Numbered from the stretch's first letter, positions 35,931-53,964 are shown. The stretch is DNA of 64,000 nt from an uncultured Acidimicrobiaceae bacterium (GCA_964481925.1 CAYZVQ010000002.1:3867-67866); one strand, 5' to 3'. A program made the numbers and translations. Notes: generated from the letters alone by a model not told the origin.

Positions 35931-35933
35931 GCT

Positions 35934-41480: not shown

Positions 41481-41614
41481 TTGTCGAGCAAACGGTGTGA
41501 AGCAGTTGCCCGACAGGCTTCGAGAGCACGAAGACCCCTACGAGGCGGACGCGAACCTGGCTGGACGCGCCTTGCAGAAGAAATGGAGAGCCCGAGAGAG
41601 GAGGTGAGCGAGTA

Positions 41615-41734
41615 GTGGCATCAGAGCGGTTGGGGGGGGACGAGATCCCCGAGGGGACCTTCCACGGTGGGGACGAGATCCCCGAGGGGACCTTCCACGG
41701 TGGGGACGAGATCCCCGCTGGCACGTTCCACTGA
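41615..41734 (+). CDS. candidate 39-aa repeat peptide (VASERLG-[GDEIPEGTFHG]x2-GDEIPAGTFH)
   Basis: GTG preceded by SD GAGGAGG (41598-41604). The reading frame coincides with a 33-bp tandem repeat, and a perfect 13-bp hairpin follows. There is no homology support and the ORF is very short. Confidence 0.3.
   Translation: MASERLGGDEIPEGTFHGGDEIPEGTFHGGDEIPAGTFH
41636..41731 (+). repeat. 33-bp tandem repeat x2.9 (GGGGACGAGATCCCCGAGGGGACCTTCCACGGT)
   Basis: Units at 41636-41668 and 41669-41701 are identical. The third (41702-41731) has 4 substitutions. Confidence 0.95.
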
Positions 41735-41744
41735 GTAGGTGAGG

Positions 41745-41774
41745 GGTCGGCCCGACCTTTTGGTCGGGCCGACC
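41745..41774 (+). terminator. perfect 13-bp stem / TTTT loop hairpin
   Basis: GGTCGGCCCGACC-TTTT-GGTCGGGCCGACC, 10 nt after the small-ORF stop and 87 nt before the operon start at 41861. It has no long U-tract. Confidence 0.4.
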
Positions 41775-41860
41775 TTCGCCGCCAAAGTCTCACACGGTAC
41801 GAGGTCCCGCCGCGGCGACGGGGGCCTGGTCGATCAACACGGAGCCGAAGGAGGCCTGAG

Positions 41861-42319
41861 ATGACGCAGTACAAGCTGAAATACCGGGCCGTTGGGAAGG
41901 CCGACTACGAGTTCACGTTTGCTTGGCTGGCCCCGGACAACTGCTGGCGGGTCTATATAGAGGACCAGCCCCTTTACCGGGGCCGGAACACCAGCGACGT
42001 CAGCACTCACCGATTAGGTCTGGGTTCGCGGCCCTACGTGTGCTGGGACCGCCCGCTGCTGACCTACGAGGACGCGCGAGCAGTCGCCGCATTGTGGGCG
42101 GACTGCACCCAACAATATATCGCCACAGGGTTTTTTGTCGCCCCTCCGGGCCGCGGGCCCGTTAACGACACCACGCCCTGTTCCCGCCTCAGCGAGCAGC
42201 AACTCCGGGCCGGGCCTCCCCCAGGTCCGGGAGCGTTTGTTCGCCCGGTCCCGCTTTCCCCGCCAACTCCGAACCGGTCGTCTGGGCCGATTCGCCGACT
42301 CCTGGAGCGTCTTGGATGA
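41861..42319 (+). CDS. small protein translationally coupled to JAB-E1. Candidate E1 substrate (Gly-terminated flexible tail) or E2-like partner
   Basis: Compact N-terminal domain (YEFTFAWLAPDNCWRVYIEDQP...THRLGLGSRPYVCWDRP...) with His-x11-Cys. Pro-rich tail ending ...RRLLERLG-stop. ATGA overlap with the next gene (42316-42319). No family recognised. Confidence 0.6.
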   Translation: MTQYKLKYRAVGKADYEFTFAWLAPDNCWRVYIEDQPLYRGRNTSDVSTHRLGLGSRPYVCWDRPLLTYEDARAVAALWADCTQQYIATGFFVAPPGRGPVNDTTPCSRLSEQQLRAGPPPGPGAFVRPVPLSPPTPNRSSGPIRRLLERLG

Positions 42320-43932
42320 CACTGGCACGTACCGCCCTCAGCTTTATGACCCGCCCCCAAGCCCTAGCAGAGCTGTTCCTCGGCCGAGCGTTGGCGCTGA
42401 GCCCGCCCTCCCGCTACCGGCGCATGACCCCGGGTGACCTTCGTGGACCAGGGCCGTTGGTCCTGACCGATCAGGTCCACGACCAGATAGCTCGGACGAT
42501 CGGCGATATGCCGGCTGAGCAGGGCGGCATGCTGGGCGGCCGTCGCCGGACCGGCACAGTCACGCATTTTGCCTTCGATGGGTCAGCACGATGCTCGTTC
42601 GCCACCTACACCCCCGACAGAGCGACCCTCAACCAGCTCTTGCGAGAAGAGTGGAACCCCCAGGACGTGGACTTGCTCGGTTTTGCGCACAGCCATCCGA
42701 CAGGGTCATCGAGGCCGAGCCACGGCGACCTCATTTATGCCGACAGGATCCTGGCCGCTATCCCGGCCATGGACCGGCTTGTCCTGCCCATAGTCCAGAC
42801 GATCCCGGGTTCGGGGAACTTCGGGTTGTACGCCTACGTCGCCACCAGGACCACGGGGACGGCGCAGATCGACGATGTCCCGGTCATGGTCGTACCGGCG
42901 GAGCCCGGTGATCCCACCGTTGGCGACGCTGGGTTCGACCGCGTCCGCGACGCCTACGATCTCGCCCTCACGGCGCGGGCGCGCCTGGTGTTGGTCGGCG
43001 TCGGCGGGGCGGCCGGTTTCGCCGAGTCGATGGCTCGGGCCGGGGTTGGCGAGTTCGTCCTGATCGACCCTGATGTCGTCGAGTTGCCTAACGTGGGCAC
43101 GCAGCAGGTCTACCGGTCCGACGTCGGCCGGCCGAAGATCGATGCCGTAGCCGGCCGCATACTGGACGTGAACCCCTACGCCCGGGTGGTGGGGGCTCAA
43201 GTCTCACTTGACGCGCTGAGCGATGACATGGTCCGGCGGCTCGTGCACCGGCCCTTGGCGAACAGTGCCACGCCCGGCCCTGTGACGACGGTGTTGTGCG
43301 GGTTCACCGACGACTTCTGGGCCCAGGCCCGGGTCAACCGCCTAGCACTGCACCTGGGCGTTCCCATGCTGGCCGCCCAGGTGTACCGGGAGGGCAGGGG
43401 AGCCGAAGTCAGCTTCTCCGTCCCCGGTGTGACCCGGGCGTGCGGGCGATGCGTCTTGGGGCCCCGCTACCGCGCCTTCCTGGAACGCGGCTACCGCAAC
43501 ACGGTTAGTTCCCACGGGACCCCGCTGTGGGCCACGGAGCGGCTCAATGCCCTCAAGGCCGAGGTTATTCTCGCCATCCTCCACGGCACGGCCGGGTACG
43601 GCGATGTCGGGCACCCGGCCAGAGCCCGGTACTCCTCGTTGCGCGAGCGGGTCGCCGCCCGCAACCTGGTTGTCGCCCGGCTCGATCCCGACATGGCGGA
43701 GACGCTCGGCGTCACCATGTTCGACAAAGCCTTGGCGGGGGCGGACGGCGAACGCATCGTCGCCGATGAGACCCTCTGGCTGCCACAGGACCCCGAGGGG
43801 CCGGAGACAGGGTTCGAACCATGCCCGGACTGCAAAGGCACCGGCGACCTCACCCTGTGCCAGGGCACGTTCACGGACACCCGGCTCTCGCCGCCGGCCG
43901 TGGTCGAGCTGGAGACGGCCGGCGGGAACTGA
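42316..43932 (+). CDS. JAB/MPN metalloisopeptidase - E1 (ThiF/MoeB-like adenylyltransferase) fusion
   Basis: JAMM motif GFAHSHPTGSSRPSHGD (about 42680-42729) with upstream EQGGMLGG. E1 Rossmann LVLVGVGGAAGFA...VLIDPDVVELPNVGTQ. Two CxxC pairs (CGRC at 43441-43452, CPDC at 43822-43833), as in Zn-binding ThiF/MoeB. Confidence 0.85.
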   Translation: MTLARTALSFMTRPQALAELFLGRALALSPPSRYRRMTPGDLRGPGPLVLTDQVHDQIARTIGDMPAEQGGMLGGRRRTGTVTHFAFDGSARCSFATYTPDRATLNQLLREEWNPQDVDLLGFAHSHPTGSSRPSHGDLIYADRILAAIPAMDRLVLPIVQTIPGSGNFGLYAYVATRTTGTAQIDDVPVMVVPAEPGDPTVGDAGFDRVRDAYDLALTARARLVLVGVGGAAGFAESMARAGVGEFVLIDPDVVELPNVGTQQVYRSDVGRPKIDAVAGRILDVNPYARVVGAQVSLDALSDDMVRRLVHRPLANSATPGPVTTVLCGFTDDFWAQARVNRLALHLGVPMLAAQVYREGRGAEVSFSVPGVTRACGRCVLGPRYRAFLERGYRNTVSSHGTPLWATERLNALKAEVILAILHGTAGYGDVGHPARARYSSLRERVAARNLVVARLDPDMAETLGVTMFDKALAGADGERIVADETLWLPQDPEGPETGFEPCPDCKGTGDLTLCQGTFTDTRLSPPAVVELETAGGN

Positions 43933-43993: not shown

Positions 43994-44512
43994 ATGTCCA
44001 GTGACAACTCGCGGCACCCCGACTACGTCCCCAAGGGTGTTCCCCTCAGTGGCGTAGTGGCGCGTAGCACGGTTTGGGAACGGACCGTTGTCCCCATCGG
44101 CGGTTCGGCCCGGGCGCTGGCCTGGGTCGCCACCCCGGCATTGCTGGCCCTGACACTGACGGTCCTGGTGTGGCCGGCCCCGGGTACCGGTGCTCAGCGC
44201 CCGGGCTTCTTTGTCTTCGGCTGGCCCTGGGTGGCCAGCCTGTTGCGGGTGGCTCACAGCTTTGTACCCAGCGACCTGGTCACTTCGGTGCTGCTACTGA
44301 CCATTTGCTTGTTGACAGCCGGCTTCACCGAGGCTGGTCGACGAGTCCAGCTGGCCCTCGGTGCCGTCCTGGTTTCTGCGCTGGTGGCGCTGGCCTTCCC
44401 GGCTCTCGTGCTGGCCATAGCCGTTGCCAATTTGGCCCTATGGATCCTGGTCGGTGCCCTTATCGCCGCCGCCGTCATCATCGTCATCGCCGCGCTGTGC
44501 TCAGCGCTTTGA
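43994..44512 (+). CDS. membrane protein (4 predicted TM segments), unknown function
   Basis: ATG at 43994 after GGAGGTG. Hydrophobic segments ALAWVATPALLALTLTVLVW, FFVFGWPWVASLL, VLLLTICLLTAGF and ALVALAFPALVLAIAVANLALWILVGALIAAAVIIVIAAL. Confidence 0.6.
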   Translation: MSSDNSRHPDYVPKGVPLSGVVARSTVWERTVVPIGGSARALAWVATPALLALTLTVLVWPAPGTGAQRPGFFVFGWPWVASLLRVAHSFVPSDLVTSVLLLTICLLTAGFTEAGRRVQLALGAVLVSALVALAFPALVLAIAVANLALWILVGALIAAAVIIVIAALCSAL

Positions 44513-44530: not shown

Positions 44531-44797
44531 ATGACTTCTGCCCTACCCGCACGTGCTCTCGCCTGCCCGCAACCGGCGCCCGTGACGGCCCCTCAGCCCG
44601 CGCTGACGGTGAGCGGTCCGCGGCCCGTGACCGCTGCTCATGCCCAGGCCCCGTCGCCACGCCCGGCGGCCAAAGCCCAGCCAGAAGCCCTGGACCGCCT
44701 GGCCCGCGCCGTCGTACGTCGGGCAGCCGACAAGGGCGTCACCATCGAAGAGGCTCGCTCGTGTGCCCGGAGCGCGCCCGGGCCCGTCGACATTTGA
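44531..44797 (+). CDS. small Pro/Ala-rich protein, unknown function
   Basis: ATG 9 nt after GGAAAGGA. Fits the 18-nt gap after the previous gene. C-terminal helix-like DRLARAVVRRAADKGVTIEEAR. No homology recognised. Confidence 0.4.
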   Translation: MTSALPARALACPQPAPVTAPQPALTVSGPRPVTAAHAQAPSPRPAAKAQPEALDRLARAVVRRAADKGVTIEEARSCARSAPGPVDI

Positions 44798-44834
44798 CTC
44801 CCACCGCACCCTGACCGACGCCGAAGCCTGCCAG

Positions 44835-45116
44835 ATGCTGGCCGCTCCGCCTCCGCCCGGGCCCACCACGAGGATGGCGGCCGGGCTTGATCATGCCGCG
44901 CTCGCCGTGGGCCTGGCCGCCGGTGCGCTCGCCCTGGGCGCCGCCGCCCTTTTGGCTTCGCCCCTCTTCGTCGTCGGGTCGCTTGGCGGGACGCTCGGTG
45001 GGACCGTCGATCCCGCCATCATCGGTGTGCTCACGCTGCCGGGCACGGGCTGGCAGCCGGGAACGCCCGCCGCTTGGTTCCTACTCACCCATTGGGACTG
45101 GAGACTTCTGTTATGA
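44835..45116 (+). CDS. small membrane protein, unknown function
   Basis: High GC3 in this frame. Hydrophobic AALAVGLAAGALALGAAALLASPLFVVGSLGG. Ends 16 nt before the AAA+ gene. Alternative start at 44874. Confidence 0.4.
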   Translation: MLAAPPPPGPTTRMAAGLDHAALAVGLAAGALALGAAALLASPLFVVGSLGGTLGGTVDPAIIGVLTLPGTGWQPGTPAAWFLLTHWDWRLLL

Positions 45117-45132
45117 AATGGAGGCAATAGCA

Positions 45133-46446
45133 ATGAGCCAACTGCTGCAAGCTTCGCCCGAACGCCTGGCCGCTCTGCGCGAACGCGCTGAACGGTCCTG
45201 CCTGGCCTTCTCCGACGAACGACTGCCACCGGGGGCGTCGCCGGGCGTGGGCCGGGTGGGTATCGAGATCGACCCGGTCAGCGGGCGGGCCCTGCTCCAC
45301 GTCGAGCGGGGTATCCATTACACCGGTCCCAGTCCCGACGTGGCGACCTGGTTTGCCAGTGGCACGCTGAGCTTCGCCACCTACGACGAGCTTCGCCGGT
45401 GGCTTTCCGGTCCCCTTGCCGTCGCCTACAACGGCCACGCCGTCTCTACCGGTGATAACGGCAGTGCCGGCGGTGCCGGGCCGGGCGGGGCCGTCGAGGC
45501 CATCGTCATTGAAGACGACCGCCTGGCGGCGGCCCTGGAGCTCGAGGTCATAGGCCAGCACGGCTCCGCCGTGGCCCTGGCCCGAGCCGCCGCCCTCCAC
45601 CTGGCTCGAGTGGCCCCCCGCCGCCCTCTCACGGTCCTCGCCCTAGGCCCGACCGGGGTGGGTAAGACCCTGATGGCCGAAACGCTTGCCGGTGCCATAG
45701 CTAAGACCGCCGGTACCGACTGCGACTACCTTCGCCTCGACATGGCCGAGTTCCAAGAGCGCCACACCGTTTCCAAGCTGCTCGGTGCCCCTCCCGGCTA
45801 CGTCGGCTTCGGTGAAGACCCGCAGATCCTTCGCGCCTTGCGCACGGGTGGACGGGCTGTAGTGCTCATCGACGAGATCGAAAAAGCACACCCCGACGTG
45901 TTCTTGGCACTCATGAACCTTATGGACGCTGGGCGCATCACGCCGGCGTCCGGCGAGGCCATCGATGCCCGTCACGCCATTCTGGTCTTCACCACCAACC
46001 TTGCCGTAGAGGTCATCCGGTCCGTCCTATCCCAAGCGAGCAACCTGGAGCCCGTTAGCCGGGACACCGCCGTGCGGGCCGCGCTGCGGTCCCATGGCAT
46101 CGCCCCTGAGCTCGTCGGCCGTCTCCACGAACTGCTGGTGTTCGACGACCTGGGCCAGGAACACCTGGACGCTCTCATCGCCCGTTCGGTCGAGCGAGAA
46201 GGTCGTACCTTCGGGCTCGAAGTGCTGAAGGTCGCCCCGGAGGTAATCGAGGCTCTTCGGTGCCATCGCTCCGACCCGGGCTCAGGTGCGCGAGCCTGGG
46301 AGCATCTCATCTGCGTCGATATTGGGCCCGCGTTCTTGGACGCACGTCGACGCGGTATCACCGGCATGGTGAGCATCAAGGGCGATCCCATCACAGTCGA
46401 GCCCGAGACGGTGATGACCGAGACGGCCAGGAGTGATGTGCAATGA
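45133..46446 (+). CDS. Clp/Hsp100 D2-type AAA+ ATPase with unrecognised N-terminal domain
   Basis: LALGPTGVGKTLMAETLA (Walker A), LRLDMAEFQERHTVSKLLGAPPGYVGF, VVLIDEIEKAHPDVFLALMNLMDAGRIT (Walker B / AAA_2 signature). The first roughly 190 aa have no match I recognise. Stop overlaps the next start (ATGA at 46443-46446). Confidence 0.8.
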   Translation: MSQLLQASPERLAALRERAERSCLAFSDERLPPGASPGVGRVGIEIDPVSGRALLHVERGIHYTGPSPDVATWFASGTLSFATYDELRRWLSGPLAVAYNGHAVSTGDNGSAGGAGPGGAVEAIVIEDDRLAAALELEVIGQHGSAVALARAAALHLARVAPRRPLTVLALGPTGVGKTLMAETLAGAIAKTAGTDCDYLRLDMAEFQERHTVSKLLGAPPGYVGFGEDPQILRALRTGGRAVVLIDEIEKAHPDVFLALMNLMDAGRITPASGEAIDARHAILVFTTNLAVEVIRSVLSQASNLEPVSRDTAVRAALRSHGIAPELVGRLHELLVFDDLGQEHLDALIARSVEREGRTFGLEVLKVAPEVIEALRCHRSDPGSGARAWEHLICVDIGPAFLDARRRGITGMVSIKGDPITVEPETVMTETARSDVQ

Positions 46447-49400
46447 GCTTGTCGATCCCCGATGACCACCATGCGCGCTCGCTGGAAGCCCTCCTCGGCG
46501 ACGGTCCTCAATCGTTGCACGCCGCGCTCGAGTGGGTGTTCCCCGTCCCGACCACCTCGCTCGGGACGGTCGACCTCGTCGACCTCGAGATAGCGGGGGA
46601 AAGCTACTGGCAGAGCCAAGCCGCCCAGCCTCGATGGGTGCGGCCCGTGCGCGTTGCCGTTGCCGGGCCCGACGAGGGAGACTTGTTCGAGCTGGATCTG
46701 CCGTGGCTGTGCGACGACCGTGCACTGCGGACGACCGCGGGGGACGACTCGATCCAAGTCGGTGCTCACAGGGGGTTATTCCTCGGCCGGCCGTTGCAGC
46801 CCCGGGCCCAGCTTGTGCCCAGACCGGGGCTACGAACCCGCCATTCCGCCACGCTGACGTTCCATGTCCTCGTACCCGACATCGGCCAGGATGTGGGTCT
46901 CGCCCGCAGCCCACGGGGCCTGGTGGTCCAGTTTGGCCGACGCCCGCCCCGGGTCTTGACTATGGCCGTGGTCGACCAGCTGCTGGCTGGGGCGCGCCCG
47001 AGCGAAGTCCCGGGCGACAGCGACCTTCCCACCCTGTCCCGGTTCCGGGCGCTCGCCACCGACGGCGGGTCGTGGGCCCGGCGGTTCAGCCCGACGACGC
47101 TCGAGCTCATCGACAGCGATTTGCGGCTGGCGGAGGCGAGCTGGTCAAGCCGTCTGCGGGCTGTGATCGAAGGTCTTGAAGGTCTAAATGTCGACGGCAG
47201 AGCGGACGTCCCGAGCTCTGGGCTGGTTGACGAGATCTCGGAAGCATCGCTCCAGTTCCGCCTCTACGGTGACATCCTGCGCCGGACCGTCGCCGAGGGA
47301 GTACTTAGGGGAGCTCGGCGGTTCCTCGATGTCGAGGCCGAACTGGTGGACGCCGCGGACCGGAAGCGGACGCGCCAGGAGGGTCACCCGGTCGAGTTGA
47401 TAGCCCGGTTCACGGCCAAGCTGAGGACCGAGGCGCAGGCGAAGGTCGACCATACGGTCCGAGCGTCCACCACTGGGGCGATCGTCGCTCCCGACGACGA
47501 CCGTTGTACCGTGGCCGCGATCGAGAGCCGGCGCATCGTGACCCGCTACGGTCCAGGTGGCGTCGGCCGTCCAGGACCGCACCGGCTGTGGCTCCGGGGG
47601 CTTCATCCCGGGCGACGCGGCCAGCTGTGCCCACTGCTCACGCCCGAGTCGGAGGACATCGGGTTCGTAAGGTCGCTCTGCCTGGGAGCCGACGCCGGAC
47701 CTGAAGCCATTGCCACCTCCGAGCGCGGCGGTGCGTTCGCCGATCTGAGCATTGCCGCCGGCCTGGTACCGTTCGTGAACCACGACGACCCCACCCGTGC
47801 CTCGATCGCCGCTCGCATGTTGCGCCAGGCCGTCCCGATCGTCGGCGCCCAGCGACCTCGCATCGAGACCCCTGTTGCCGACATCGTGGCCGAAGACCAC
47901 GGCGTGGTCCGCGCTCCCATCACGGGCACGGTGGCTGAGGTCGGCAAAGGTTGGCTCTCTATACGCCCCGATCGGGGCCACGTAGAGATCGTCGGCTTGG
48001 GGCCCGGCAAACCATCGCCGAGTACGGTCGTCAGTGACTGGCGGTTGATGGTCAGAAATGGCGATCGTGTCTACGAGGGAGACCCGGTCGCCCACGCTCC
48101 CGATGTGGTGGTCGAGGACGGCCGCCCGCACCTTGCCGCCGGCCGGGATTGTCTGGTTGCGTACACCCCGTGGCGCGGGTGGAACTACGAGGACGCCGTC
48201 GTGGTGTCCGAAGCGATGGCGGCCATGTTCAGTTCCCAGCACGTGGTCCGTTTCGTCGAGCCCCTCGACTTGATTGCCACGGAGACGCCGGTGCTCATGG
48301 CTGAGGTAGGTGACCTCGTCGCCTTAGGGGCCGACCTGGTCAGCGTGGTGTCCCGCCACCGGACGCGACGTGTGGTGCGGGCTAGCGCCGGGGGTGTCCT
48401 CAAACGCCTCGAGATCACCGGTGACCTGGTCACCGTGGAGCTGGAGGTGCCCCGCCCGCTCCAGCTGGGCGACAAGCTCACCAACCGGCATGGTGCCAAG
48501 GGCGTTGTGGCTGCTGTTCTTCCCGTTGACCAGATGCCGCGCCTCGCCGACGGCCGCCCGGTCGAGGTCCTGTTGAACCCGTTGGGGGTCATAAGGCGGC
48601 TCAACATAAGCCAACTGCTCGAGACCCATCTGACCCTGTTGCGTGACCGCCAGGGCCAAGAAGGTACGCAGGTCGTCGGGCGGCGCCTCCCGTCACTTCA
48701 GGAGCTGCGGCATGCGCTGGCGGAGGCGGAGGCACCTGGAGGGAGGCTCCCCCTGTTCGGTCCTGACGGCCGGAGCGTAGGCGACGAGGGGGGAGTCGTC
48801 GTCGGTTGGCAGCACATCCTCAAGCTCGACCACCTGGCGGCTCACAAGCTTCGGGCCCGGAACGCGGGCCGGTTCTCGCCTCGTACTCAGCAGCCCGCCA
48901 AGGGCGGAGGTTGGGTCGCCGGCCGCCTGGTCGGCGGAGCGCAACGGCTGGGCGAGATGGAGATGTGGGCCTTGCAGGCTCTCGGCGCCGACACCGTTGT
49001 CGCTGACGCGATGGAGCGCAGTGACCACGCCGTGCGGTCCCTGGCCGCCGTCAGGGCCCATCTGCTCGTGGCGGGCATTCAACTGGGAGCTGATGAGACC
49101 GGCAATATCATCGTCAGCCGCCACGGCGAGCCGACCGGTCTGGAGCCCATCCCGGCAGAGATAGTGCAAGCCATCACCAACCCCAAGGTGTACGCCGAGG
49201 CACTGTCACCACAACGCGACCCGTTGCACGACCATCACCACGGGGTCGAACCCGGAGAGCCCAGCTGCGCCTGCGGAGATACCGGCGGGCCCGGAGCGGT
49301 CTGTCCCCACTGTGGTAGCCGAACTGCTCGGGCCGCCGGGTACGAGCGGTCAACTCCTCGTTTCGCCATCGATCTGAGCGTCCCTGTCCCGCACCCCTGG

Positions 49401-51317
49401 TTCCCCGACGACGACCGGGCCACCCTGCGTACCGTCCCCTTGCTCCCACCGGCCTACCGGCCCTTCCACGACAACCGCCTTGACATTGCCTACCGTCGCC
49501 TCGTCATTATCAACGAGAAGCTCCGCGGGCGAGGTGCCGACGACCTCGGTGCCCGCCGCCAGCTTGGTGCCGCGGTGCAGCGAGTGCTCGGCCGTCTCGA
49601 CGACCCGCCCGAGCTCGAGACGATCTCGAGCCGGCTGAACGGCAAACGCGGCCTGTTGCGACGCAGCCTGCGGGGCCGGGACACCGACTTCGCGGCCCGG
49701 GGGGTCATGGTGCCCGATCCTGAGGCCGACCCCGAGACGATCGGTGTGCCCGAGGCCGTAATGGCCGTACTCGGGCTCCACCCGGGTACTGACGAGTGGG
49801 GCGACATCGTTATTGTCAACCGCCAACCCACATTGCTCCCCACCAATATCGTCGCCCTGCGGGCCCGGCCCGTGCCGGGGGTGGCGTTCCGGGTCCACCC
49901 GTTCCTCTGCGCTCGGTTCGCCGGAGACTTCGACGGAGACGAGCTGACCGTGCACCGTCCCCTGTCGTCGGCAGCGGCCGCGGAGGCGTGGGCACGGTTC
50001 CGTCCCGCGGCGTCCTACCGCCACCCGGCCAACGGCCGCCCCGTGGCCAAGGTCGACCTCGACGTCGCCCTTGGGCTGTGGTTGACAGGTAGCGACCCGG
50101 CTGGACGAGCCCGACTTGCCTGCCGGCTCGGGCTGGCGGCAGATGACCCCGTCAACTCCGGGACGGGCCCGGTGACCCCGGTCGAGCAGCTCGCGCTTCT
50201 GGCTCGCTGCGCCGAACAAGCCTCGGACGGGCGCATTGCGGTGGAGCGGTTCACGGCCCTTTTCGACGCCGGCGTGGTCGCGGCGACAGGGTGGTCGTTC
50301 TCCGCCGTCGAAGTCGAGCGCGTCCCGGGCTTGGGCCCTGCCGGCGACGCCGCGGTCACCAGCGCGGTCCCCGCCGGCTCGGCCCTGGGCCAAGCCATCG
50401 CCGCCGGGGTGGCCGGTAAGGCGAAAGGTATCGCCCAACTGGTGTGGCGCCGAGGCAGCCTCGACGGTTTCGATGGGCGGCCAACTCCTGAGGTGGAGGA
50501 GTGCTTCCTGACTGGTTTGGACGACGCCGGCTTCTTTCACACCGCGGCGGGCGGCCTGCGGGCGCTCTCCGACAAGAAACTAGTTACCGCCCTCGCCGGG
50601 GGTCTCACCAAAGCCCTGATCGAGGCCGCCTACGACCTCACGGTCGAGGACGAGGACTGCGGCTCTCGGCACCGGGGTTTCGGAGCGGTCCTGAGCTGCC
50701 GGCTGGTTGGCCCTGGCGTGTGCGCCCGGTGCGTCGCCGCGGCCGGCGGTGGCACTGTTGGCGTAGGCGACCGCGTTGGCCTTCAAGCCGGCTTTGCCAT
50801 CGGTGAGCGCTGCACTCAAAACGCCATGAAGGCATTCCAGGGCGGAACGACCCTGGCCGTGGGCGGGAACGTTACCCGTTTGGCTGCTCTCTTCGGCCAA
50901 GGCCCGATAACCACCGGACAACTTGGAGGCAAGCCCGATGGCGCCACCTTGTCGGGCCTACTGGACCTGGACAGGACCCCGCAGGGCCGTACCGCTATGT
51001 TCGAAAGGCTTCGCCACCAGGCCGATGAGGCACTCGAAACCCAAGTGGGCCCGCACCATTTGGAGCTGCTCTGGCGGCGCTTGGTGAGCGCCCATGATAC
51101 CCGGCGACCAGGTGAGCTCAGCCGACGGGGCAATGGCACCCTGCTGGCGAAGGCCCAGGTGGCCGGGACCGCCTTTGTCGACGCCACCAGCAGGGGGCGG
51201 CTCGACCTGCTCTTGGCCGACCAGCCGGATGTCGACGTCGACGCCGCCGGCCCTGAGACGAGCCTGCGCATGAGAGTCATCGGGCACCTCGGCGCCGTTG
51301 CGGGGGTGCGGATGTGA
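46443..51317 (+). CDS. single-chain fusion of RNA polymerase beta-like and beta-prime-like modules (1624 aa, miniaturised)
   Basis: Beta-like: RYGPGGV..LHPGRRGQLCPLLTPESEDIGFV (about 47560-47669), FVNHDDPTRASIAARMLRQAVP (about 47771-47837), VAYTPWRGWNYEDAVVVS, NRHGAKGVV (48483), LNPLGVIRRLNISQLLETHL, GGAQRLGEMEMWAL (48951-48974).
Beta-prime-like: Zn ribbon CACGD..CPHCG (49266-49316), VPHPWF, NRQPTLL, HPFLCARFAGDFDGDELTVHRPLS (DFDGD at 49926-49940), a bridge-helix-like segment, and trigger-loop-like GLQAGFAIGERCTQNAMKAFQGG. Confidence 0.85.
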   Translation: MSLSIPDDHHARSLEALLGDGPQSLHAALEWVFPVPTTSLGTVDLVDLEIAGESYWQSQAAQPRWVRPVRVAVAGPDEGDLFELDLPWLCDDRALRTTAGDDSIQVGAHRGLFLGRPLQPRAQLVPRPGLRTRHSATLTFHVLVPDIGQDVGLARSPRGLVVQFGRRPPRVLTMAVVDQLLAGARPSEVPGDSDLPTLSRFRALATDGGSWARRFSPTTLELIDSDLRLAEASWSSRLRAVIEGLEGLNVDGRADVPSSGLVDEISEASLQFRLYGDILRRTVAEGVLRGARRFLDVEAELVDAADRKRTRQEGHPVELIARFTAKLRTEAQAKVDHTVRASTTGAIVAPDDDRCTVAAIESRRIVTRYGPGGVGRPGPHRLWLRGLHPGRRGQLCPLLTPESEDIGFVRSLCLGADAGPEAIATSERGGAFADLSIAAGLVPFVNHDDPTRASIAARMLRQAVPIVGAQRPRIETPVADIVAEDHGVVRAPITGTVAEVGKGWLSIRPDRGHVEIVGLGPGKPSPSTVVSDWRLMVRNGDRVYEGDPVAHAPDVVVEDGRPHLAAGRDCLVAYTPWRGWNYEDAVVVSEAMAAMFSSQHVVRFVEPLDLIATETPVLMAEVGDLVALGADLVSVVSRHRTRRVVRASAGGVLKRLEITGDLVTVELEVPRPLQLGDKLTNRHGAKGVVAAVLPVDQMPRLADGRPVEVLLNPLGVIRRLNISQLLETHLTLLRDRQGQEGTQVVGRRLPSLQELRHALAEAEAPGGRLPLFGPDGRSVGDEGGVVVGWQHILKLDHLAAHKLRARNAGRFSPRTQQPAKGGGWVAGRLVGGAQRLGEMEMWALQALGADTVVADAMERSDHAVRSLAAVRAHLLVAGIQLGADETGNIIVSRHGEPTGLEPIPAEIVQAITNPKVYAEALSPQRDPLHDHHHGVEPGEPSCACGDTGGPGAVCPHCGSRTARAAGYERSTPRFAIDLSVPVPHPWFPDDDRATLRTVPLLPPAYRPFHDNRLDIAYRRLVIINEKLRGRGADDLGARRQLGAAVQRVLGRLDDPPELETISSRLNGKRGLLRRSLRGRDTDFAARGVMVPDPEADPETIGVPEAVMAVLGLHPGTDEWGDIVIVNRQPTLLPTNIVALRARPVPGVAFRVHPFLCARFAGDFDGDELTVHRPLSSAAAAEAWARFRPAASYRHPANGRPVAKVDLDVALGLWLTGSDPAGRARLACRLGLAADDPVNSGTGPVTPVEQLALLARCAEQASDGRIAVERFTALFDAGVVAATGWSFSAVEVERVPGLGPAGDAAVTSAVPAGSALGQAIAAGVAGKAKGIAQLVWRRGSLDGFDGRPTPEVEECFLTGLDDAGFFHTAAGGLRALSDKKLVTALAGGLTKALIEAAYDLTVEDEDCGSRHRGFGAVLSCRLVGPGVCARCVAAAGGGTVGVGDRVGLQAGFAIGERCTQNAMKAFQGGTTLAVGGNVTRLAALFGQGPITTGQLGGKPDGATLSGLLDLDRTPQGRTAMFERLRHQADEALETQVGPHHLELLWRRLVSAHDTRRPGELSRRGNGTLLAKAQVAGTAFVDATSRGRLDLLLADQPDVDVDAAGPETSLRMRVIGHLGAVAGVRM

Positions 51318-52360
51318 GCCCGGGCAGGCGAAATGTCCGGCCCGGGACCGGCACGGGCAACGCCATCGAGACGGTCAAAGCCGTCGGCCCTGAGACCCGG
51401 AAAGGGCCGAGCCGGACCGTCCGGCTGGCCCGAGCCCTGGCCAGCGGGCTCCTAAACCAAGATGATGGCCGGGACCGCGAAGACGACGACTACGAACCGG
51501 ACCCCTGGGACGAGCTCCCTGAGGAACTCGACCCGGACGACACCGATGCGTTGACAGATGACGATTATGTCGACAATGTTGACGACAAACCTCTGGTCCC
51601 GCGTTCGGCGCGTTCAAGGCCGATTATCACGTTCTCCAAGTCCTCGGGCTGGCACCAACGTCCCGACCCGCTGACGGCGCACGCCGTCCGGCGCCCGACC
51701 AGGTCGGCGCCCATGGCTCGCGGCATGCAGGTCCGCACTGTCAGCTCGCCCGGTGGTGGCCCCGATGGCGACGAGGTGGCGGCGAGCGAGGCGGAAGCCG
51801 AACTGGCGGCGATCGCCCAGGCTCTGGCTGATCGCCAGCCGTCGGCAATCTTGGCGTCCAGCCGGCTCGATGCGTACGACGAGCTCCAGCCGATGACTGA
51901 GCGGGCCCTGGCCGAGGCCGCCGGTTGCGACGTAGCCGCCCTCAGCCGCCGTCGACGGTCCCTGGTCGCCTGCCCCTGGGGCGTAGTGCCCCTTGAATAC
52001 TTCTGGTGGAAACGCCACGACGGGCTCCGGGTCGCCGAGGCCCGCCGGCTCGTCTCGCTCCTGCAGGACCAGCCCCGGACCGCCGACCTCGCCGCCGCGG
52101 CCCAGGTGGTAGCCGCCGACCGCCTCGCTGACCCGGAGGAGAGGCGGCGGCGCACAGATACGATACGCAAGCAAGTGCCCGTCGTTCGCGCCATCCTGCC
52201 GCACCTCGACCTGCTCAACGGCTGGTCGGCGGCGTTCCCGTTCATCGACGAGGAGGAGCTCGAGGAACAACTTGGCCTTACGCCTAGCGTGCGTGGCAAA
52301 GGACTGGTCCGCCTAGCCCTCATAGGGTGCTTCGCGGGAAGGAGCGGCTTGTGCTCGTAG
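51314..52360 (+). CDS. sigma54-like (RpoN-like) protein, short form
   Basis: PMTERALAEAAGCDVAALSRRRRSLVACPWGVVPLEYFWWK (51893-52012) parallels RpoN PM.L.DIA.....HESTISR...KY...P.G.FELKYFF. RRRRTDTIRKQVPVV (about 52142-52186) parallels the RpoN box ARRTVAKYRE. Has an acidic tract like region II. 348 aa vs about 480 for canonical RpoN. ATGA-type overlap with the polymerase gene. Confidence 0.55.
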   Translation: MSPGRRNVRPGTGTGNAIETVKAVGPETRKGPSRTVRLARALASGLLNQDDGRDREDDDYEPDPWDELPEELDPDDTDALTDDDYVDNVDDKPLVPRSARSRPIITFSKSSGWHQRPDPLTAHAVRRPTRSAPMARGMQVRTVSSPGGGPDGDEVAASEAEAELAAIAQALADRQPSAILASSRLDAYDELQPMTERALAEAAGCDVAALSRRRRSLVACPWGVVPLEYFWWKRHDGLRVAEARRLVSLLQDQPRTADLAAAAQVVAADRLADPEERRRRTDTIRKQVPVVRAILPHLDLLNGWSAAFPFIDEEELEEQLGLTPSVRGKGLVRLALIGCFAGRSGLCS

Positions 52361-53964
52361 GAAATCACGGGTGCCCGGACCTGGCGGCACGGCTCGAAAT
52401 GGCGGGCATGGAGGCCCGGGTCATCGACACCCACTCCGACCTGAACACGGACATTGAATACCTGTTCGTGAGGGTGTCGGGTGAGCGCTACCCGCCCGTC
52501 CTGGCCCGTGCGGCCGAGCTCGATATCCCCACCACCGTGGTGGTCGACGTGCTCAGCACGTGGGCGCTGGCGGAACTGTTGCTCCGGAACCCCAACGTCG
52601 AGGAAATCCTTGAGGACGCCACCCTGGGCTCGCTCGACCTGGAGCGCGTACGAGGCACCGTCGCCATGCGCACCGCCGTCGGCCACGGTTTTCGGATCGG
52701 CACCCTCCTGGCCATGCCTGACGATCCCGAGGGTTACGAGGCGCGGCGTTATCTCTCGTTTGTCTCACCGGCGATGGCGGGCTTCTTACGGGAACTTCGT
52801 GCCGCGCTCGGACAGATGGTAAGGCCCCGCCCACCTATCCCCTGGGACCCCACGGACGGCCATGACCCAGTCGAAATAGTGGAGAAAAGTGGTGAGCCGC
52901 ACACTCAGGCCCCCTATAACCTCTCGGACCTCGTTCGTCATGCCAAGAAACCCTGGGCGCGAGAAGTCCTGAGCGCGGCCGATGAACGCCGGTGGCAGCC
53001 CCTGCCACCACCGCTGTTGCTGCTCGGAGAAAGCGGCACCGGCAAAAGCCTTGTGGCCCGGCTCATCCACGAGCAACTAACCGATGCCGTCTCGGACAAA
53101 CGATTGCGTGGGTGCCTTGTACCGGTGAACACCGCGGCCATGGACACCCGCAACTTCGACTACGAGCTGTTCGGAGCGGCCCAAGGCACATGGAACGAGG
53201 TCGACTATCGCGTCGGTGCCATCACCCAGGCCGCCTATGGCACCGTCTTTTTCGACGAGATAGGCGACATGCCCGTCCCGGCCCAGAGCCGCCTGCTGAC
53301 GTTTTTCAACGACTTAGCGGTCAAGATCGAGGGTGCCCGGGCCTTTTTCAGCTTCACCCACGTCCTGGCCGCTACTAACCGTGACCTTGACCATCTTGTC
53401 ACTTCAGGCCGCTTCAAGCACGACCTGTTGGCGCGGTTCCGTTGCCGCGTGACCCTTCCGCCCCTTCGCCAGCGCTCCGCGGACGAGCTCCGGCGGCTGG
53501 TCGATTTCGTGGCCCAGGACCCCGCGGTCAACCCTCGCAGCCCGAGACATGAGCCGGGCACCTCCAGGGCCGAACGTCTCGTCACGCATATTTCCGAGGA
53601 CGCCATGTCCCTCGTGCTCGGTCACCGCTACAGCGAGGGCAATTTCAGGGAGCTCGAAGAGATCATCCATACCGGGATCTGGCGTGCTCGTGGGGCCAAT
53701 AGCCGCACCCTGGAACCCGACCACCTAGAGCTTCGACCCCAGCGGTTCCGTCCCGATGCCGACCGCCGCGTGATCAACGTGCGAGCGCTGCCGGCGGCGC
53801 CGAAAGGAGCGGTCTTCGTCGAGAACATCGACGAGATCAGCCGCTATGCCGACCTGCGCAATTGTCCGATCCTGCGAGCCGGTGGCATTTACGCCATCAT
53901 CGACGGCGACCTCCATCTACGCTTCGGTCCTGTCCCTGAGGCCAACGGTCACGCCGAGCGTTGA
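52351..53964 (+). CDS. bEBP-like (sigma54-interaction-domain) AAA+ ATPase with divergent GAFTGA loop
   Basis: LLLLGESGTGKSLVARLIH (53026-53049), ELFGAAQGTWNEV in the GAFTGA position (53170-53202), GTVFFDEIGDM, VLAATNRDL..V..GRFKHDLLARFR..V.LPPLRQR. GTG at 52351 follows GGAAGGAG and overlaps the upstream stop. N-terminal receiver-like region. No obvious C-terminal Fis-type HTH. Confidence 0.75.
   Translation: MLVGNHGCPDLAARLEMAGMEARVIDTHSDLNTDIEYLFVRVSGERYPPVLARAAELDIPTTVVVDVLSTWALAELLLRNPNVEEILEDATLGSLDLERVRGTVAMRTAVGHGFRIGTLLAMPDDPEGYEARRYLSFVSPAMAGFLRELRAALGQMVRPRPPIPWDPTDGHDPVEIVEKSGEPHTQAPYNLSDLVRHAKKPWAREVLSAADERRWQPLPPPLLLLGESGTGKSLVARLIHEQLTDAVSDKRLRGCLVPVNTAAMDTRNFDYELFGAAQGTWNEVDYRVGAITQAAYGTVFFDEIGDMPVPAQSRLLTFFNDLAVKIEGARAFFSFTHVLAATNRDLDHLVTSGRFKHDLLARFRCRVTLPPLRQRSADELRRLVDFVAQDPAVNPRSPRHEPGTSRAERLVTHISEDAMSLVLGHRYSEGNFRELEEIIHTGIWRARGANSRTLEPDHLELRPQRFRPDADRRVINVRALPAAPKGAVFVENIDEISRYADLRNCPILRAGGIYAIIDGDLHLRFGPVPEANGHAER

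What the first reader, a model, noticed from the sequence alone, without database searches (positions are those of the whole stretch)
41861..43932. JAB-E1 fusion coupled to a small protein with a flexible Gly-terminated tail, and no recognisable E2 or GG-ending beta-grasp Ubl
Seen in sequence:
- The 152-aa ORF ends ...GPIRRLLERLG-stop, after a roughly 55-aa Pro-rich and probably disordered tail.
- Its stop overlaps the ATG of a protein that fuses a JAMM isopeptidase (HSHPTGSSRPSHGD) to a ThiF/MoeB-like adenylation domain with two CxxC pairs.
- The small protein also has His-x11-Cys (THRLGLGSRPYVCW), loosely reminiscent of the E2 HPN...C geometry.

Established knowledge:
- E1-type enzymes adenylate a C-terminal Gly on a flexible tail. 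This holds for ubiquitin, ThiS/MoaD and CD-NTase tails in CBASS.
- JAB domains trim or reverse such linkages.

Inference, two alternatives:
(a) The 152-aa protein is the conjugated substrate or Ubl surrogate.
(b) It is a divergent E2, and the substrate is another operon protein such as the polymerase, the sigma-like factor or the AAA+.
Basis: partly seen in the sequence, partly recalled or inferred. Interest (0 to 1): 0.7.

Follow-up and report, generated by a model that had tools for sequence, protein, structure and literature searches.

The report
Peptide, cysteine protein, JAB-E1, AAA+ module
It looks like a ubiquitin-style tagging system built from parts with no known fold.

Summary
In detail: a 152-aa ORF (41861-42319) ends ...RRLLERLG-stop, and its stop overlaps (ATGA) the start of a 538-aa JAB-E1 fusion. 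The JAMM motif is intact. The ThiF-type adenylation site is intact apart from one canonical Arg, replaced by Thr across the family. Two CxxC pairs are present.

New findings:
- **Small protein.** Its first ~92 residues are a large unannotated family ("HC domain"; 773 clusters) with invariant Cys-Trp and near-invariant Thr-His-Arg. A confident AF2 model (pLDDT 93.8) is not a beta-grasp and matches no solved structure, UBC included.
- **Tail.** The Gly-ending tail is clade-specific. About half of the family has no tail.
- **Missed gene.** At 41615-41734 lies a 39-aa peptide, MASERL-(GGDEIPxGTFH)x3, followed by a strong hairpin. It shows a clear coding signature. Thirty loci found from the peptide pattern alone nearly all carry the HC and JAB-E1 genes.
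- **Fourth partner.** An orphan N-domain ("AAA2N"), usually fused to a ClpB-like AAA+ ATPase.
- **E1.** It has no crossover-loop cysteine. The only solved protein with the same layout is BubCD.

Best reading (about 0.4): a Bub-like conjugation pathway. The peptide would be the activated modifier, the HC protein the cysteine carrier, and the Gly-tail an accessory. Function is unproven.

The parts
41600..41734 (+). RBS GGAGG at 41600-41604, GTG start at 41615, TGA stop at 41732-41734. Product: (M)ASERL-GGDEIPEGTFH-GGDEIPEGTFH-GGDEIPAGTFH, 39 aa.
   Evidence: - Sequence and translation.
- TRF finds a 33-bp period, 2.9 copies, 93% matches.
- Coding signature: across 31 distinct unit DNAs from 13 loci, entropy by codon position is 0.27 / 0.17 / 1.34.
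- Homologous peptides lie next to HC/JAB-E1 genes in nearly all related loci.
- L043 (MASNEFGG...) and L042 (MTEHALRGG...) have short leaders of the same kind, which supports the GTG start.
41738..41780 (+). Strong GC-rich hairpin directly after the peptide stop codon. Arms 41745-41757 and 41762-41774, loop UUUU, no T-run. Probably an attenuator or mRNA-stabilising stem between the peptide gene and the enzyme genes.
   Evidence: - RNA fold of 41725-41800: -42.6 kcal/mol, z = -5.5, 0 of 200 shuffles as stable.
- Not called as a canonical intrinsic terminator.
- A comparable 10-20-bp stem follows the peptide stop in most other loci, although the sequences are unrelated.
41861..42319 (+). The 152-aa small protein:
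- HC domain, aa ~1-92.
- Conserved ordered extension, aa 93-119.
- Disordered Pro-rich linker, aa ~120-143.
- C-terminal amphipathic motif GPIRRLLERLG.
   Evidence: - ORF.
- Family alignments.
- Wider family: 773 clusters at E<=1e-3.
- AF2 models: (pLDDT 93.8, pTM 0.88 for aa 1-120).
- No Pfam, NCBIfam, PADLOC or PHROG family.
- No significant Foldseek match in PDB or BFVD.
42316..43932 (+). The 538-aa JAB-E1 fusion:
- JAMM peptidase, aa ~45-190.
- ThiF-type adenylation domain, aa ~205-515, with two Zn-type CxxC pairs.
- No conserved Cys in the crossover loop.
   Evidence: - Domain calls: 4, 5, 7.
- Conservation over 120 and 40 homologues.
- PDB profile search: TcdA, UBA5, MoeB and MccB match the Rossmann part. 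Citrobacter BubCD (9ea4) is the only hit aligned across both the JAB and E1 regions (E=3.8e-6, query 112-273).
43994..44512 (+). 172-aa hydrophobic membrane protein (gene 3). It accompanies the module only in the tail-bearing actinobacterial clade.
   Evidence: - Coordinates and hydropathy.
- Homologues in L001, L004, L005 and L006.
44531..45116 (+). Gene 4, a ~230-aa protein in relatives that ends ...PAAWFLLTHWDW. In this window it is split over two frames and lacks about 65 internal residues.
   Evidence: - Comparison with the L005 229-aa homologue.
- The family is present in L001, L004, L005, L006, L008 and the window.
45118..46446 (+). AAA+ ATPase with two parts:
- An orphan ~105-aa N-domain ('AAA2N').
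- A ClpB-NBD2-like AAA_2 module with Walker A GPTGVGKT, Walker B LIDEIEKA and pore loop GAPPGYVG.
This is the fourth conserved component of the module.
   Evidence: - Pfam AAA_2 at 1.1e-36 and a ClpB partial match.
- AAA2N alignment A6.
- AAA2N has no Pfam or PDB hit.
- It is present beside JAB-E1 in almost all loci, sometimes as a stand-alone ~110-aa protein.
- It is fused to an HC-like domain in L048.
46443..53964 (+). Variable accessory block in the same operon, with overlapping start/stop junctions:
- 1624-aa RNA polymerase beta-beta' fusion.
- 348-aa protein with no family.
- Sigma-54-activator-type AAA+.
   Evidence: - Domain calls: 3, 4, 5.
- The RNAP recurs next to the module in L005, L011, L012, L014, L016, L025 and L027. 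It is absent from L001, L004, L008, L009, L026 and most others.

Best explanation
**What it is**
The region is the core of a conserved four-component module:
1. A short peptide, leader-(GGDEIPxGTFH)n, with n = 1 to 9 or more.
2. A small 'HC-domain' protein of unknown fold, with an invariant Cys-Trp and a near-invariant Thr-His-Arg 11 residues upstream.
3. A JAB-E1 fusion with intact peptidase and adenylation sites but no catalytic cysteine.
4. An orphan 'AAA2N' domain, usually fused to a ClpB-like AAA+ unfoldase.

**Proposed mechanism (inferred, by analogy with Type I Bub)**
- The JAB domain trims the peptide.
- The E1 domain adenylates the peptide's C-terminus.
- The acyl group passes to Cys61 of the HC protein, which acts as an E2 analogue.
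- From there it passes to a target.
- AAA2N/AAA+ binds or unfolds the tagged product.

**Consequence for the 152-aa protein**
- On this reading it is the cysteine carrier rather than the Ubl surrogate.
- Its Gly-terminated tail is an appendage specific to one actinobacterial clade.
- The tail either docks on the E1 (it copies the E1's own LLERIG helix) or is a secondary E1 substrate.

**Shown versus inferred**
- Shown: the gene set, its conservation and order, the conserved residues, that the peptide is coding, the intact catalytic motifs, and the lack of any known fold.
- Inferred: every chemical step and the biological role. The role is probably conflict or defence, judged from the neighbouring genes.
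For: **Module conservation**
- HC-anchored loci L011-L024, from Actinomycetota, Planctomycetota, Acidobacteriota, Myxococcota, Pseudomonadota, Victivallales and 'Rickettsiales', carry HC -> JAB-E1 -> AAA2N(-AAA+).
- Of 6 E1-anchored loci, 5 have an adjacent HC gene and all 6 have AAA2N.
- Of 30 peptide-anchored loci, 25 have HC and 23 have JAB-E1. The exceptions are contig ends.

**The peptide is translated and under selection**
- Variation sits at third codon positions: entropy 0.27 / 0.17 / 1.34.
- An RBS precedes the start codon.
- A hairpin follows the stop codon in most loci.

**Natural fusions**
- Peptide motif-TM-HC in L030/L039.
- Peptide motif-HC in P0187 and P0269.
- AAA2N-HC in L048.
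- The peptide-HC order matches the Ubl-E2 fusion BubAB, which the JAB domain of BubCD cleaves (bioRxiv 10.1101/2024.11.21.623953).

**The E1**
- No conserved Cys lies between residues 357 and 400, while the adenylation residues G228/G230/G231, D251/D253, K274, D332 and R209 are invariant.
- BubCD is the only solved structure aligned across JAB and E1. It also lacks a catalytic Cys.

**The HC protein**
- C61, W62, W79 and Y86 are invariant in 46 diverse members.
- Cys is kept even in the divergent HC2 paralogues.

**The tail is not universal**.

**Context**
- Neighbouring genes include nSTAND, HD-CE, Fic, recombinases and transposases.
Against: - A confident HC model shows no significant similarity to UBC/E2 or to any solved structure. 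The E2 role rests on a conserved Cys/His pair and on context alone.
- About half of the peptides end exactly at ...FH-stop, and single-unit peptides (L010, L025, L006) have no Gly after the conserved unit. A classical Gly-carboxylate substrate is therefore not general. E1 action on a C-terminal His would be unusual.
- Some peptides carry the motif ahead of a zinc ribbon (L011, L013, L014). The motif may therefore be a binding epitope rather than a reactive end.
- AAA2N also has a >=90% conserved Cys and could be the carrier instead.
- The canonical NxxRQ arginine of the E1 is Thr in the whole family.
No biochemical evidence exists.
Confidence: 0.4

Rival explanations
1. Reader's alternative (a). 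The 152-aa HC protein is itself the E1 substrate. Gly152, on its flexible tail, is adenylated and the protein is conjugated to a target or partner, as CD-NTases are by Cap2 in Type II CBASS. JAB trims precursors (G plus 1-3 residues) or reverses the linkage. The repeat peptide would then be a target, a regulator or a recognition element.
For: - In one search, 17 of 20 full-length close homologues end ...ER[LI]G, one ends ...LRELIG and one ends ...QGR.
- Among 58 long-tailed representatives, 26 end in Gly and 31 have Gly within the last 3 residues. Examples are GSN in L008, and GR, GW, GRH, GP, GS and GRS elsewhere.
- The linker is disordered.
- The gene is translationally coupled to JAB-E1.
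- The JAMM site is intact.
Against: - The tail is absent from 71 of 153 family representatives, which still pair with the same JAB-E1 clade.
- Other tails end in R, N, Y, S or A...ERYFR...NLFNY...LPALA.
- The tail's LLERIG motif duplicates an internal E1 helix. LL.RI occurs in 40 of 120 E1 homologues, against a background of 4.5e-5 per residue. That favours a docking role.
- This reading leaves the invariant Cys-Trp unexplained.
Confidence: 0.2
2. RiPP-like pathway. The repeat peptide is a multi-core precursor. The ThiF-type domain chemically modifies each unit, for example at the Asp-Glu pair or at the C-terminus, as MccB and PaaA do. JAB excises the units. The HC protein is a peptide-binding or processing partner. 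The product is a small modified peptide, not a protein conjugate.
For: - A short multi-copy precursor gene is followed by a strong hairpin and then by the enzyme genes, the classic precursor-gene layout.
- MccB and PaaA are among the better PDB matches to the E1 domain (E=1.2e-13 and 1.8e-11).
- Unit number varies from 1 to 9 or more.
- The unit sequence is strongly conserved.
Against: - The conserved core contains no exporter, immunity gene or other tailoring enzyme.
- The E1 has a JAB domain where MccB and PaaA have a peptide-clamp domain.
- The obligate partner is a ClpB-like unfoldase N-domain.
- The motif is fused to a transmembrane segment plus HC domain, or to zinc ribbons, in some loci.
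- The neighbourhoods look like mobile or defence islands rather than biosynthetic clusters.
Confidence: 0.15
3. Recognition-motif model. DEIPxGTFH is a short linear motif, multimerised for avidity, that is bound by AAA2N/AAA+ or by the HC domain. It would act as an adaptor, decoy or degron. JAB-E1 would act on something else, such as a host or phage protein or a sulfur-carrier-type reaction. The HC protein would be a regulator.
For: - The motif works in several contexts: free, tandem, N-terminal to TM-HC, and N-terminal to zinc ribbons.
- The spacers are GG.
- Copy number varies.
- The AAA+ has a ClpB-type pore loop.
- AAA2N is fused to HC in L048.
- In L048 the E1 nucleotide-binding motifs look degenerate, yet the module persists.
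Against: - The JAMM and adenylation residues are under strict conservation in 120 homologues. This implies a dedicated, co-inherited substrate.
- Only the peptide and the HC protein are universally co-inherited.
- About half of the peptides end precisely at FH. That argues the free C-terminus matters.
Confidence: 0.12

Closest known systems
Type I Bub (formerly '6E.1/DUF6527') operons: BubAB (Ubl-E2 fusion), BubCD (JAB-E1 fusion), BubE. Sources: Iyer et al. 2006 (PMC1779556); Ye et al. bioRxiv 10.1101/2024.11.21.623953.
   Same: - An N-terminal JAB/JAMM peptidase is fused to a ThiF-type E1.
- BubCD is the only solved protein that the family profile aligns across both domains (9ea4, E=3.8e-6).
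- Both E1s lack a crossover-loop cysteine.
- In Bub the modifier and carrier are made as one N-to-C fusion cut by JAB. Here, rare peptide-HC fusions have the same order.
   Different: - No beta-grasp Ubl, no UBC-fold E2 and no DUF6527/BubE were found.
- The partner has an invariant Cys, not Ser.
- The candidate modifier is a 9-11-residue repeat unit.
- An AAA2N/ClpB-like ATPase is an obligate partner.
- Sequence similarity to BubCD is weak. TcdA, UBA5, MoeB and MccB score higher on the Rossmann part.
Type II CBASS: Cap2 (E2-E1), Cap3 (JAB) and a CD-NTase whose C-terminus is conjugated.
   Same: - An E1 plus a JAB act on the flexible C-terminal tail of a non-Ubl protein encoded in the same operon.
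- PADLOC 'E1-E2' models give weak hits to the Rossmann region (best 2e-12).
   Different: - There is no CD-NTase, no E2-E1 fusion and no effector.
- Cap2 has catalytic cysteines.
- The Cap2 structure matches only at E=5e-4.
MoeB/ThiF/TcdA/UBA5-type homodimeric E1-like adenylyltransferases.
   Same: - They are the best sequence matches for the adenylation domain.
- The Gly-rich loop, Asp, Lys and the two structural CxxC pairs are all present.
   Different: - The module contains no sulfur-carrier beta-grasp partner and no rhodanese.
- The NxxRQ arginine is Thr.
- The domain is fused to an active JAMM peptidase.
E1-like RiPP enzymes MccB (microcin C) and PaaA (pantocin A).
   Same: - A ThiF-type enzyme is encoded next to a very short precursor peptide.
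- These enzymes show that E1-like domains can act on non-Gly peptide carboxylates.
- PDB hits at 1e-13 and 2e-11.
   Different: - A JAB domain replaces the peptide-clamp N-domain.
- The precursor is a tandem repeat.
- There is no exporter.
- The HC and AAA2N partners are conserved.
Pup-proteasome system (Pup, PafA/Dop, Mpa). Functional analogy only.
   Same: - A small disordered tag is paired with an AAA+ unfoldase and with a processing or deconjugating activity.
- It is common in Actinomycetota.
   Different: - The enzymes are unrelated: glutamine-synthetase-fold ligases versus E1/JAMM.
- There is no Pup-like sequence and no proteasome genes here.

Membership tests
Ubiquitin-like beta-grasp modifiers (Ub/ThiS/MoaD/SAMP), tested on the 152-aa protein | Beta-grasp fold (beta-beta-alpha-beta-beta) | tested here: not met
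   The AF2 model (pLDDT 93.8, pTM 0.88) has the order b1-b2-b3, a long loop, then a 21-residue helix. No beta-grasp protein appears among the Foldseek hits. Pfam and NCBIfam find nothing.
Ubiquitin-like beta-grasp modifiers, tested on the 152-aa protein | Conserved C-terminal Gly(-Gly) on a flexible tail | tested here: inconclusive
   - A single terminal Gly is conserved in the close clade.
- In the wider family only 26 of 153 representatives end in Gly as part of a long tail.
- 71 of 153 have no tail.
Ubiquitin-like beta-grasp modifiers, tested on the 152-aa protein | C-terminus adenylated by the cognate E1 | not testable with these tools
This needs biochemistry or AF-Multimer.
UBC/E2 fold, tested on the 152-aa protein | UBC (or RWD/UEV) fold | tested here: not met
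   Foldseek against the PDB gives no hit at E<=1e-3. The UBC/UEV-like hits are 2a7l (TMq 0.21), VPS37A UEV (0.37) and 6ttu_D (0.34), all with E>2. A profile search of PDB sequences finds no E2.
UBC/E2 fold, tested on the 152-aa protein | HPN motif about 10 residues before a catalytic Cys | tested here: inconclusive
   - T49-H50-R51 is followed by C61 at the right spacing (H-x10-C). Cys is invariant and His is >=90% conserved.
- There is no Pro-Asn.
- His is lost in a few members, such as P0211 and internal repeat copies.
UBC/E2 fold, tested on the 152-aa protein | Forms a thioester with the modifier | not testable with these tools
   Needs a non-reducing gel or MS assay.
E1-like adenylyltransferase (ThiF/MoeB/UBA), tested on the 538-aa protein | ThiF-type Rossmann domain with Gly-rich loop, ribose- and Mg-binding Asp, and Lys | tested here: met
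   Pfam ThiF scores 64.9 bits against a 28.1 cut-off. G228/G230/G231, D251/D253, K274 and T331-D332 are invariant in 40 homologues and align with MoeB G-loop, K86 and D130.
E1-like adenylyltransferase, tested on the 538-aa protein | Arginines that contact ATP (N-terminal Arg finger and the NxxRQ Arg) | tested here: inconclusive
   R209, in F-x-R-V, is invariant and aligns near MoeB R14. The NxxRQ arginine (MoeB R73) is Thr262 in every homologue, giving NxxTQQ.
E1-like adenylyltransferase, tested on the 538-aa protein | Catalytic Cys in the crossover loop (canonical Ubl-conjugating E1s) | tested here: not met
   The only conserved cysteines are C328 (>=90%) and the two CxxC pairs. None lies between residue 357 and the first CxxC pair, or between that pair and residue 400. 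The same is true of MoeB and BubCD.
JAB/JAMM metallopeptidase, tested on the 538-aa protein | E...HxHx7Sx2D zinc site | tested here: met
   Pfam Prok-JAB scores 34.5 bits against a 25 cut-off. E68, H125, H127 and D138 are invariant and S135 is >=90% conserved.
Type I Bub operon | JAB-E1 fusion of BubCD type | tested here: met
   The architecture is the same. The family profile aligns 9ea4 over query 112-273, which spans JAB and E1, at E=3.8e-6.
Type I Bub operon | Beta-grasp Ubl fused to a Ser-type UBC E2 (BubAB) | tested here: not met
   No beta-grasp or UBC protein is present in the operon.
Type I Bub operon | DUF6527 (PF20137) serine protease BubE | tested here: not met
   No PF20137 hit appears in any window operon protein scanned.
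Type I Bub operon | Invariant crossover-loop Tyr used for an oxyester intermediate | tested here: inconclusive
   R384 is invariant and Y385 is >=90% conserved just after the first CxxC pair. S399 and T407 are invariant. Equivalence to BubCD Y370 could not be established.
Type II CBASS | CD-NTase plus Cap2 (E2-E1 fusion) plus an effector | tested here: not met
   PADLOC gives only partial E1 and JAB hits. No CD-NTase or effector model matches.
RiPP clusters with E1-like enzymes (MccB/PaaA type) | Short precursor peptide gene next to the E1-like enzyme | tested here: met
   The peptide gene at 41615-41734 and its homologues.
RiPP clusters with E1-like enzymes (MccB/PaaA type) | Exporter or immunity gene, and a peptide-clamp/RRE N-domain on the enzyme | tested here: not met
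   The conserved core has no transporter. The N-domain of the enzyme is a JAMM peptidase.

The most novel reading that the evidence does not exclude
A ubiquitin-like protein-tagging pathway that uses no beta-grasp modifier and no UBC-fold E2.
- The tag is a genetically encoded tandem 11-residue peptide (GGDEIPxGTFH)n. It is either used whole as a ready-made 'poly-tag', or cut into units by the JAB domain.
- A cysteine-less JAB-E1 activates it.
- A Cys on a new ~90-residue fold carries it.
- A ClpB-like AAA+ reads it through a new N-domain.
- In some lineages, including this window, the module is wired to a stand-alone beta-beta' RNA polymerase. This would be a new kind of bacterial conflict or regulatory system.
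Probability: 0.3. Interest if true: 0.9.

Novelty: new variant of a known kind. Interest (0 to 1): 0.8.

Why it matters
Bacterial E1/E2/JAB operons (CBASS Cap2/Cap3, Bil, Bub) have recently shown that ubiquitin-type chemistry predates eukaryotes and serves antiviral immunity. All of them use either a beta-grasp Ubl or a signalling enzyme as the activated moiety, and a UBC-fold E2.

This module keeps the E1 and the JAMM peptidase but replaces everything else:
- a short repeat peptide;
- a small Cys-bearing domain with no detectable structural relative;
- an orphan N-domain on a ClpB-like unfoldase.

It is found in at least seven phylum- or order-level groups. None of the three partner families matches a model in Pfam, NCBIfam or PADLOC, and the HC domain matches none in PHROGs either. 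Six full-text searches found no description of it.

If it conjugates, it would extend the minimal requirements for E1-driven tagging. It would also give two new protein folds and a peptide tag to study. If it is a RiPP-type pathway instead, it would be a new class with a JAB-E1 maturase. Either way, the predictions are directly testable with three or four small genes.

Tried and rejected
**Tried without result**
- Co-folding E1 with the small protein. A 65-row paired/unpaired alignment of E1-linker-HC chimeras was built.
- First AF2 model from 24 sequences (pLDDT 69.7) and Foldseek on it. Inconclusive, and superseded by the 136-sequence model.
- Profile search of PDB sequences with the HC family and with AAA2N: nothing.
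- Pfam at E<=10 on all members of both families: nothing.
- hhalign of HC against AAA2N: unrelated, probability 0.1.
- The third homologue search, with the AAA2N profile, returned only 2 proteins. No deep alignment or structure of AAA2N could be made, so whether it is RWD/UBC-like or beta-grasp is untested.
- Mobile-element origin:
  - tblastn of JAB-E1 against plasmids and of HC against phages found no match.
  - The HC pattern found no relatives in IMG/VR.
- Literature: six full-text searches, including the literal peptide motif. None found a description of this module.
- The search for related loci with the 46-sequence alignment failed because it was too diverse. It was repeated with 14 sequences.

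**Considered and rejected**
- That L006 lacks the E1. The E1 is downstream of the AAA+ gene.
- That the 33-bp repeat is a non-coding DNA or RNA element. The codon-position pattern says it is coding.
- That the short-form C-terminal Phe is a flexible reactive end. It aligns with F92, a >=90% conserved residue in a confidently modelled stretch.

Full report
**1. Observation**

The window is high-GC (about 0.62-0.70). The 152-aa ORF at 41861-42319 and the 538-aa ORF at 42316-43932 are as described.
- A GGAGG site precedes the first ATG.
- The junction is an ATGA overlap. The same overlap is called in five related loci.
- The large protein passes Pfam's cut-offs for Prok-JAB and ThiF.
- In 120 homologues and a 40-sequence alignment, these residues are invariant:
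  - the JAMM site E68, H125, H127 and D138 (S135 is >=90%);
  - the adenylation residues G228/G230/G231, D251/D253, K274 and T331-D332;
  - the candidate Arg finger R209;
  - both CxxC pairs.
- Two departures from the canonical E1 stand out:
  - The NxxRQ arginine is Thr262 throughout the family.
  - No conserved cysteine lies in the crossover loop.

**2. The small protein**

Close relatives are few: 23 proteins, all unnamed. In this clade the end ...GPIRRLLER[LI]G-stop is strikingly conserved.

A profile search of 1.84 billion representatives changes the picture.
- The first ~92 residues form a large family: 773 clusters at E<=1e-3 and 426 at E<=1e-10.
- No Pfam, NCBIfam, PADLOC or PHROG model matches it.
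- In 46 diverse members, C61, W62, W79 and Y86 are invariant. Y8, R9, F18, R30, I33, P37, Y39, R42, T49, H50, R51, A72, A76, A80, T83 and G90 are >=90% conserved.
- I call this the HC domain.

The C-termini of 153 representatives fall into three groups:
- 71 stop within six residues of the domain. Of these, 55 end exactly at ...RF and 8 at ...FG.
- 58 have tails longer than 25 residues. Of these, 26 end in Gly and 31 have Gly in the last three residues.
- The other tails end in R, N, Y or S.

Many members carry an N-terminal membrane anchor. Some carry a C-terminal membrane block or two to three tandem copies.

**3. Fold**
- With 24 sequences, AF2 gave pLDDT 69.7.
- With 136 sequences and residues 1-120, it gave pLDDT 93.8 and pTM 0.88.
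- The topology is three consecutive strands, a long loop carrying T-H-R and C-W, and a 21-residue helix. This is not a beta-grasp.
- Foldseek found nothing at E<=1e-3 in the PDB or BFVD. UBC/UEV entries appear only as noise, with TM 0.21-0.37 and E>2.
- The domain therefore cannot be filed as an E2, although H-x10-C recalls the E2 geometry.

**4. Conserved neighbourhood**

Loci were collected from three independent anchors:
- HC-protein contigs.
- JAB-E1 homologues. There are at least 362 at E<=1e-10.
- A genome scan with an HC alignment, which gave 14 loci in at least seven phylum- or order-level groups.

My own HMM/phmmer annotation shows a constant set: HC gene(s) -> JAB-E1 -> a ClpB-NBD2-like AAA+.
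- The first ~105 residues of that AAA+ are another orphan domain, AAA2N. It has no Pfam or PDB hit and is unrelated to HC.
- AAA2N also occurs alone in L009, L016, L031, L040 and L044. It is fused to an HC-like domain in L048.
- L006 only appeared to lack the E1; it lies downstream there.

Accessory genes vary:
- The membrane protein (43994-44512) and gene 4 are limited to the tail-bearing actinobacterial clade.
- The beta-beta' RNA polymerase block recurs in 8 loci and is absent from most others.

**5. The missed gene**

All-against-all clustering of locus ORFs exposed a recurrent short ORF made of GGDEIPxGTFH units.
- In the window it runs from GTG 41615 to TGA 41734, behind a GGAGG site.
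- It encodes (M)ASERL plus three units. TRF finds a 33-bp period with 2.9 copies.
- It is coding. Across 31 distinct unit DNAs, variability is 0.27 / 0.17 / 1.34 bits at codon positions 1 / 2 / 3. Units within one locus differ mostly by synonymous changes.
- A relaxed search finds the motif in nearly every locus. This includes:
  - single-unit peptides in L006, L010 and L025;
  - versions followed by a zinc ribbon in L011, L013 and L014.
- A scan of metagenome contigs with only the degenerate 33-nt pattern returned 30 loci. Of these, 25 carry HC and 23 carry JAB-E1. The exceptions are contig ends.
- About half of all peptides end exactly at ...FH-stop. GG precedes the first unit in 10 of 11 cases.
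- Natural fusions exist: motif-TM-HC in L030/L039, and motif-HC in P0187 and P0269.
- A very stable hairpin follows the stop codon in the window (-42.6 kcal/mol, z -5.5) and in most loci, although the sequences are unrelated.
- No Pfam or NCBIfam family covers the peptide. The literal motif is absent from the searched literature.

**6. Comparison with known systems**
- The family profile's best PDB matches are TcdA, UBA5, MoeB and MccB, on the Rossmann part only.
- Citrobacter BubCD is the one solved protein aligned across JAB and E1.
- According to the Bub preprint:
  - BubCD lacks a catalytic Cys and uses a crossover-loop Tyr.
  - Its JAB domain cuts the Ubl-E2 fusion BubAB.
  - A DUF6527 protease completes the operon.
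- Here there is no beta-grasp, no UBC fold and no DUF6527. The carrier candidate has Cys rather than Ser.
- Iyer et al. 2006 described the 6e class, but not this gene set.
- CBASS, Bil, sulfur-carrier and Pup systems each fail defining features (see the membership table).

**7. Mechanism**

The most economical reading is a Bub-like cascade:
- peptide as modifier;
- JAB as trimming or reversing peptidase;
- E1 as adenylating enzyme;
- HC Cys61 as acyl carrier;
- AAA2N/AAA+ as reader or unfoldase.

The reasoning is as follows.
- The peptide and the HC protein are the only proteins universally co-inherited with the strictly conserved E1 and JAMM sites.
- The E1 has no cysteine of its own.
- The Gly-tail is then a clade-specific accessory.
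- Its LLERIG core is also an internal helix of the E1. LL.RI occurs in 40 of 120 homologues, against a background of 4.5e-5 per residue. That suggests docking by mimicry.
- A role as a second E1 substrate is not excluded.

Weak points:
- There is no UBC fold.
- Many peptides end in His, not Gly.
- The motif also works internally, ahead of zinc ribbons.
- AAA2N has its own conserved Cys.

All chemical steps are inference. I give this model 0.4. The alternatives score as follows:
- a RiPP-type pathway: 0.15;
- a pure recognition-motif model: 0.12.

**8. Context and role**
- The operon sits in a lower-GC stretch (0.61-0.63 at 36-42 kb), downstream of IS/recombinase remnants.
- Related loci lie among nSTAND, HD-CE, Fic, LSDAT/SprT, recombinase, transposase and conjugation genes.
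- This fits a mobile conflict or defence island. No phage or plasmid copy was found.

**9. Verdict**

The finding is the visible part of a widespread, apparently undescribed E1/JAB module with three orphan partners. I rate it a new variant of a known kind (bacterial E1-JAB conjugation-type operons), with interest 0.8.

Noticed in passing
window 46443-53964: A 1624-aa RNA polymerase beta-beta' fusion, a 348-aa protein with no family, and a sigma-54-activator-type AAA+ lie in the same operon with overlapping junctions. The polymerase recurs beside the module in L005, L011, L012, L014, L016, L025 and L027, and is absent from most other loci. What it transcribes, and why it travels with an E1/JAB module, is unexplained.
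   Followed up: partly
window 44531-45116: Gene 4 is a ~230-aa protein in L001, L004, L005, L006 and L008. In this window it is split between two reading frames and lacks about 65 internal residues. It may be a pseudogene, or a deletion or assembly error.
   Followed up: partly
window 42316-43932, aa ~438-450, versus 41861-42319, aa 145-152: The C-terminal motif of the small protein (RRLLER[IL]G) repeats the consensus of an internal helix of the E1 family (R[YW]xxLLxRIxxRNL). LLERIG itself occurs in 10 of 120 E1 homologues. This may be docking by mimicry. It remains unexplained.
   Followed up: partly
L048 9473-12802: A variant locus with three unusual features:
- the E1 nucleotide-binding motifs look degenerate;
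- a second, shorter HC paralogue type (..SHVL..YVCW..WV.RYG) is present, also seen in L016, L035 and L055;
- there is an AAA2N-HC fusion plus an extra stand-alone AAA2N.
   Followed up: no
L011 ~9894, L013 8631-8855, L014 ~11612 and ~15548: In Bifidobacteriaceae, Propionibacteriaceae and Micropruina loci, the IPxGTFH motif is followed by G/GG/AG and then an MJ0042-type zinc ribbon, not a stop codon.
   Followed up: no
L009 847-7022: Immediately upstream of the module lies a second, different E1/E2 system: Prok-E2_D, ThiF, DUF6094 and a helicase. This suggests clustering of ubiquitin-type systems in one island.
   Followed up: no
window 35418-36440: Overlapping ORFs on both strands resemble transposase or recombinase remnants with weak HTH hits. 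The GC content drops to 0.61-0.63 from 36 to 42 kb. The operon may sit in an acquired island.
   Followed up: no
window 36663-37538 and 39557-41419: A D-glutamate cyclase-like protein (PF14336, 1e-60) and a 620-aa secreted-looking Peptidase_A4 protein lie between the IS remnants and the module. No link to the module was seen in other loci.
   Followed up: no
L025 8593-14304, L027 8614-15003: In these two loci the HC gene lies downstream of JAB-E1, overlapping it. It is followed by VWA-like, OmpA-like and unknown genes before the peptide, the AAA+ and a 1678-2041-aa polymerase. This is a larger variant of the system.
   Followed up: no
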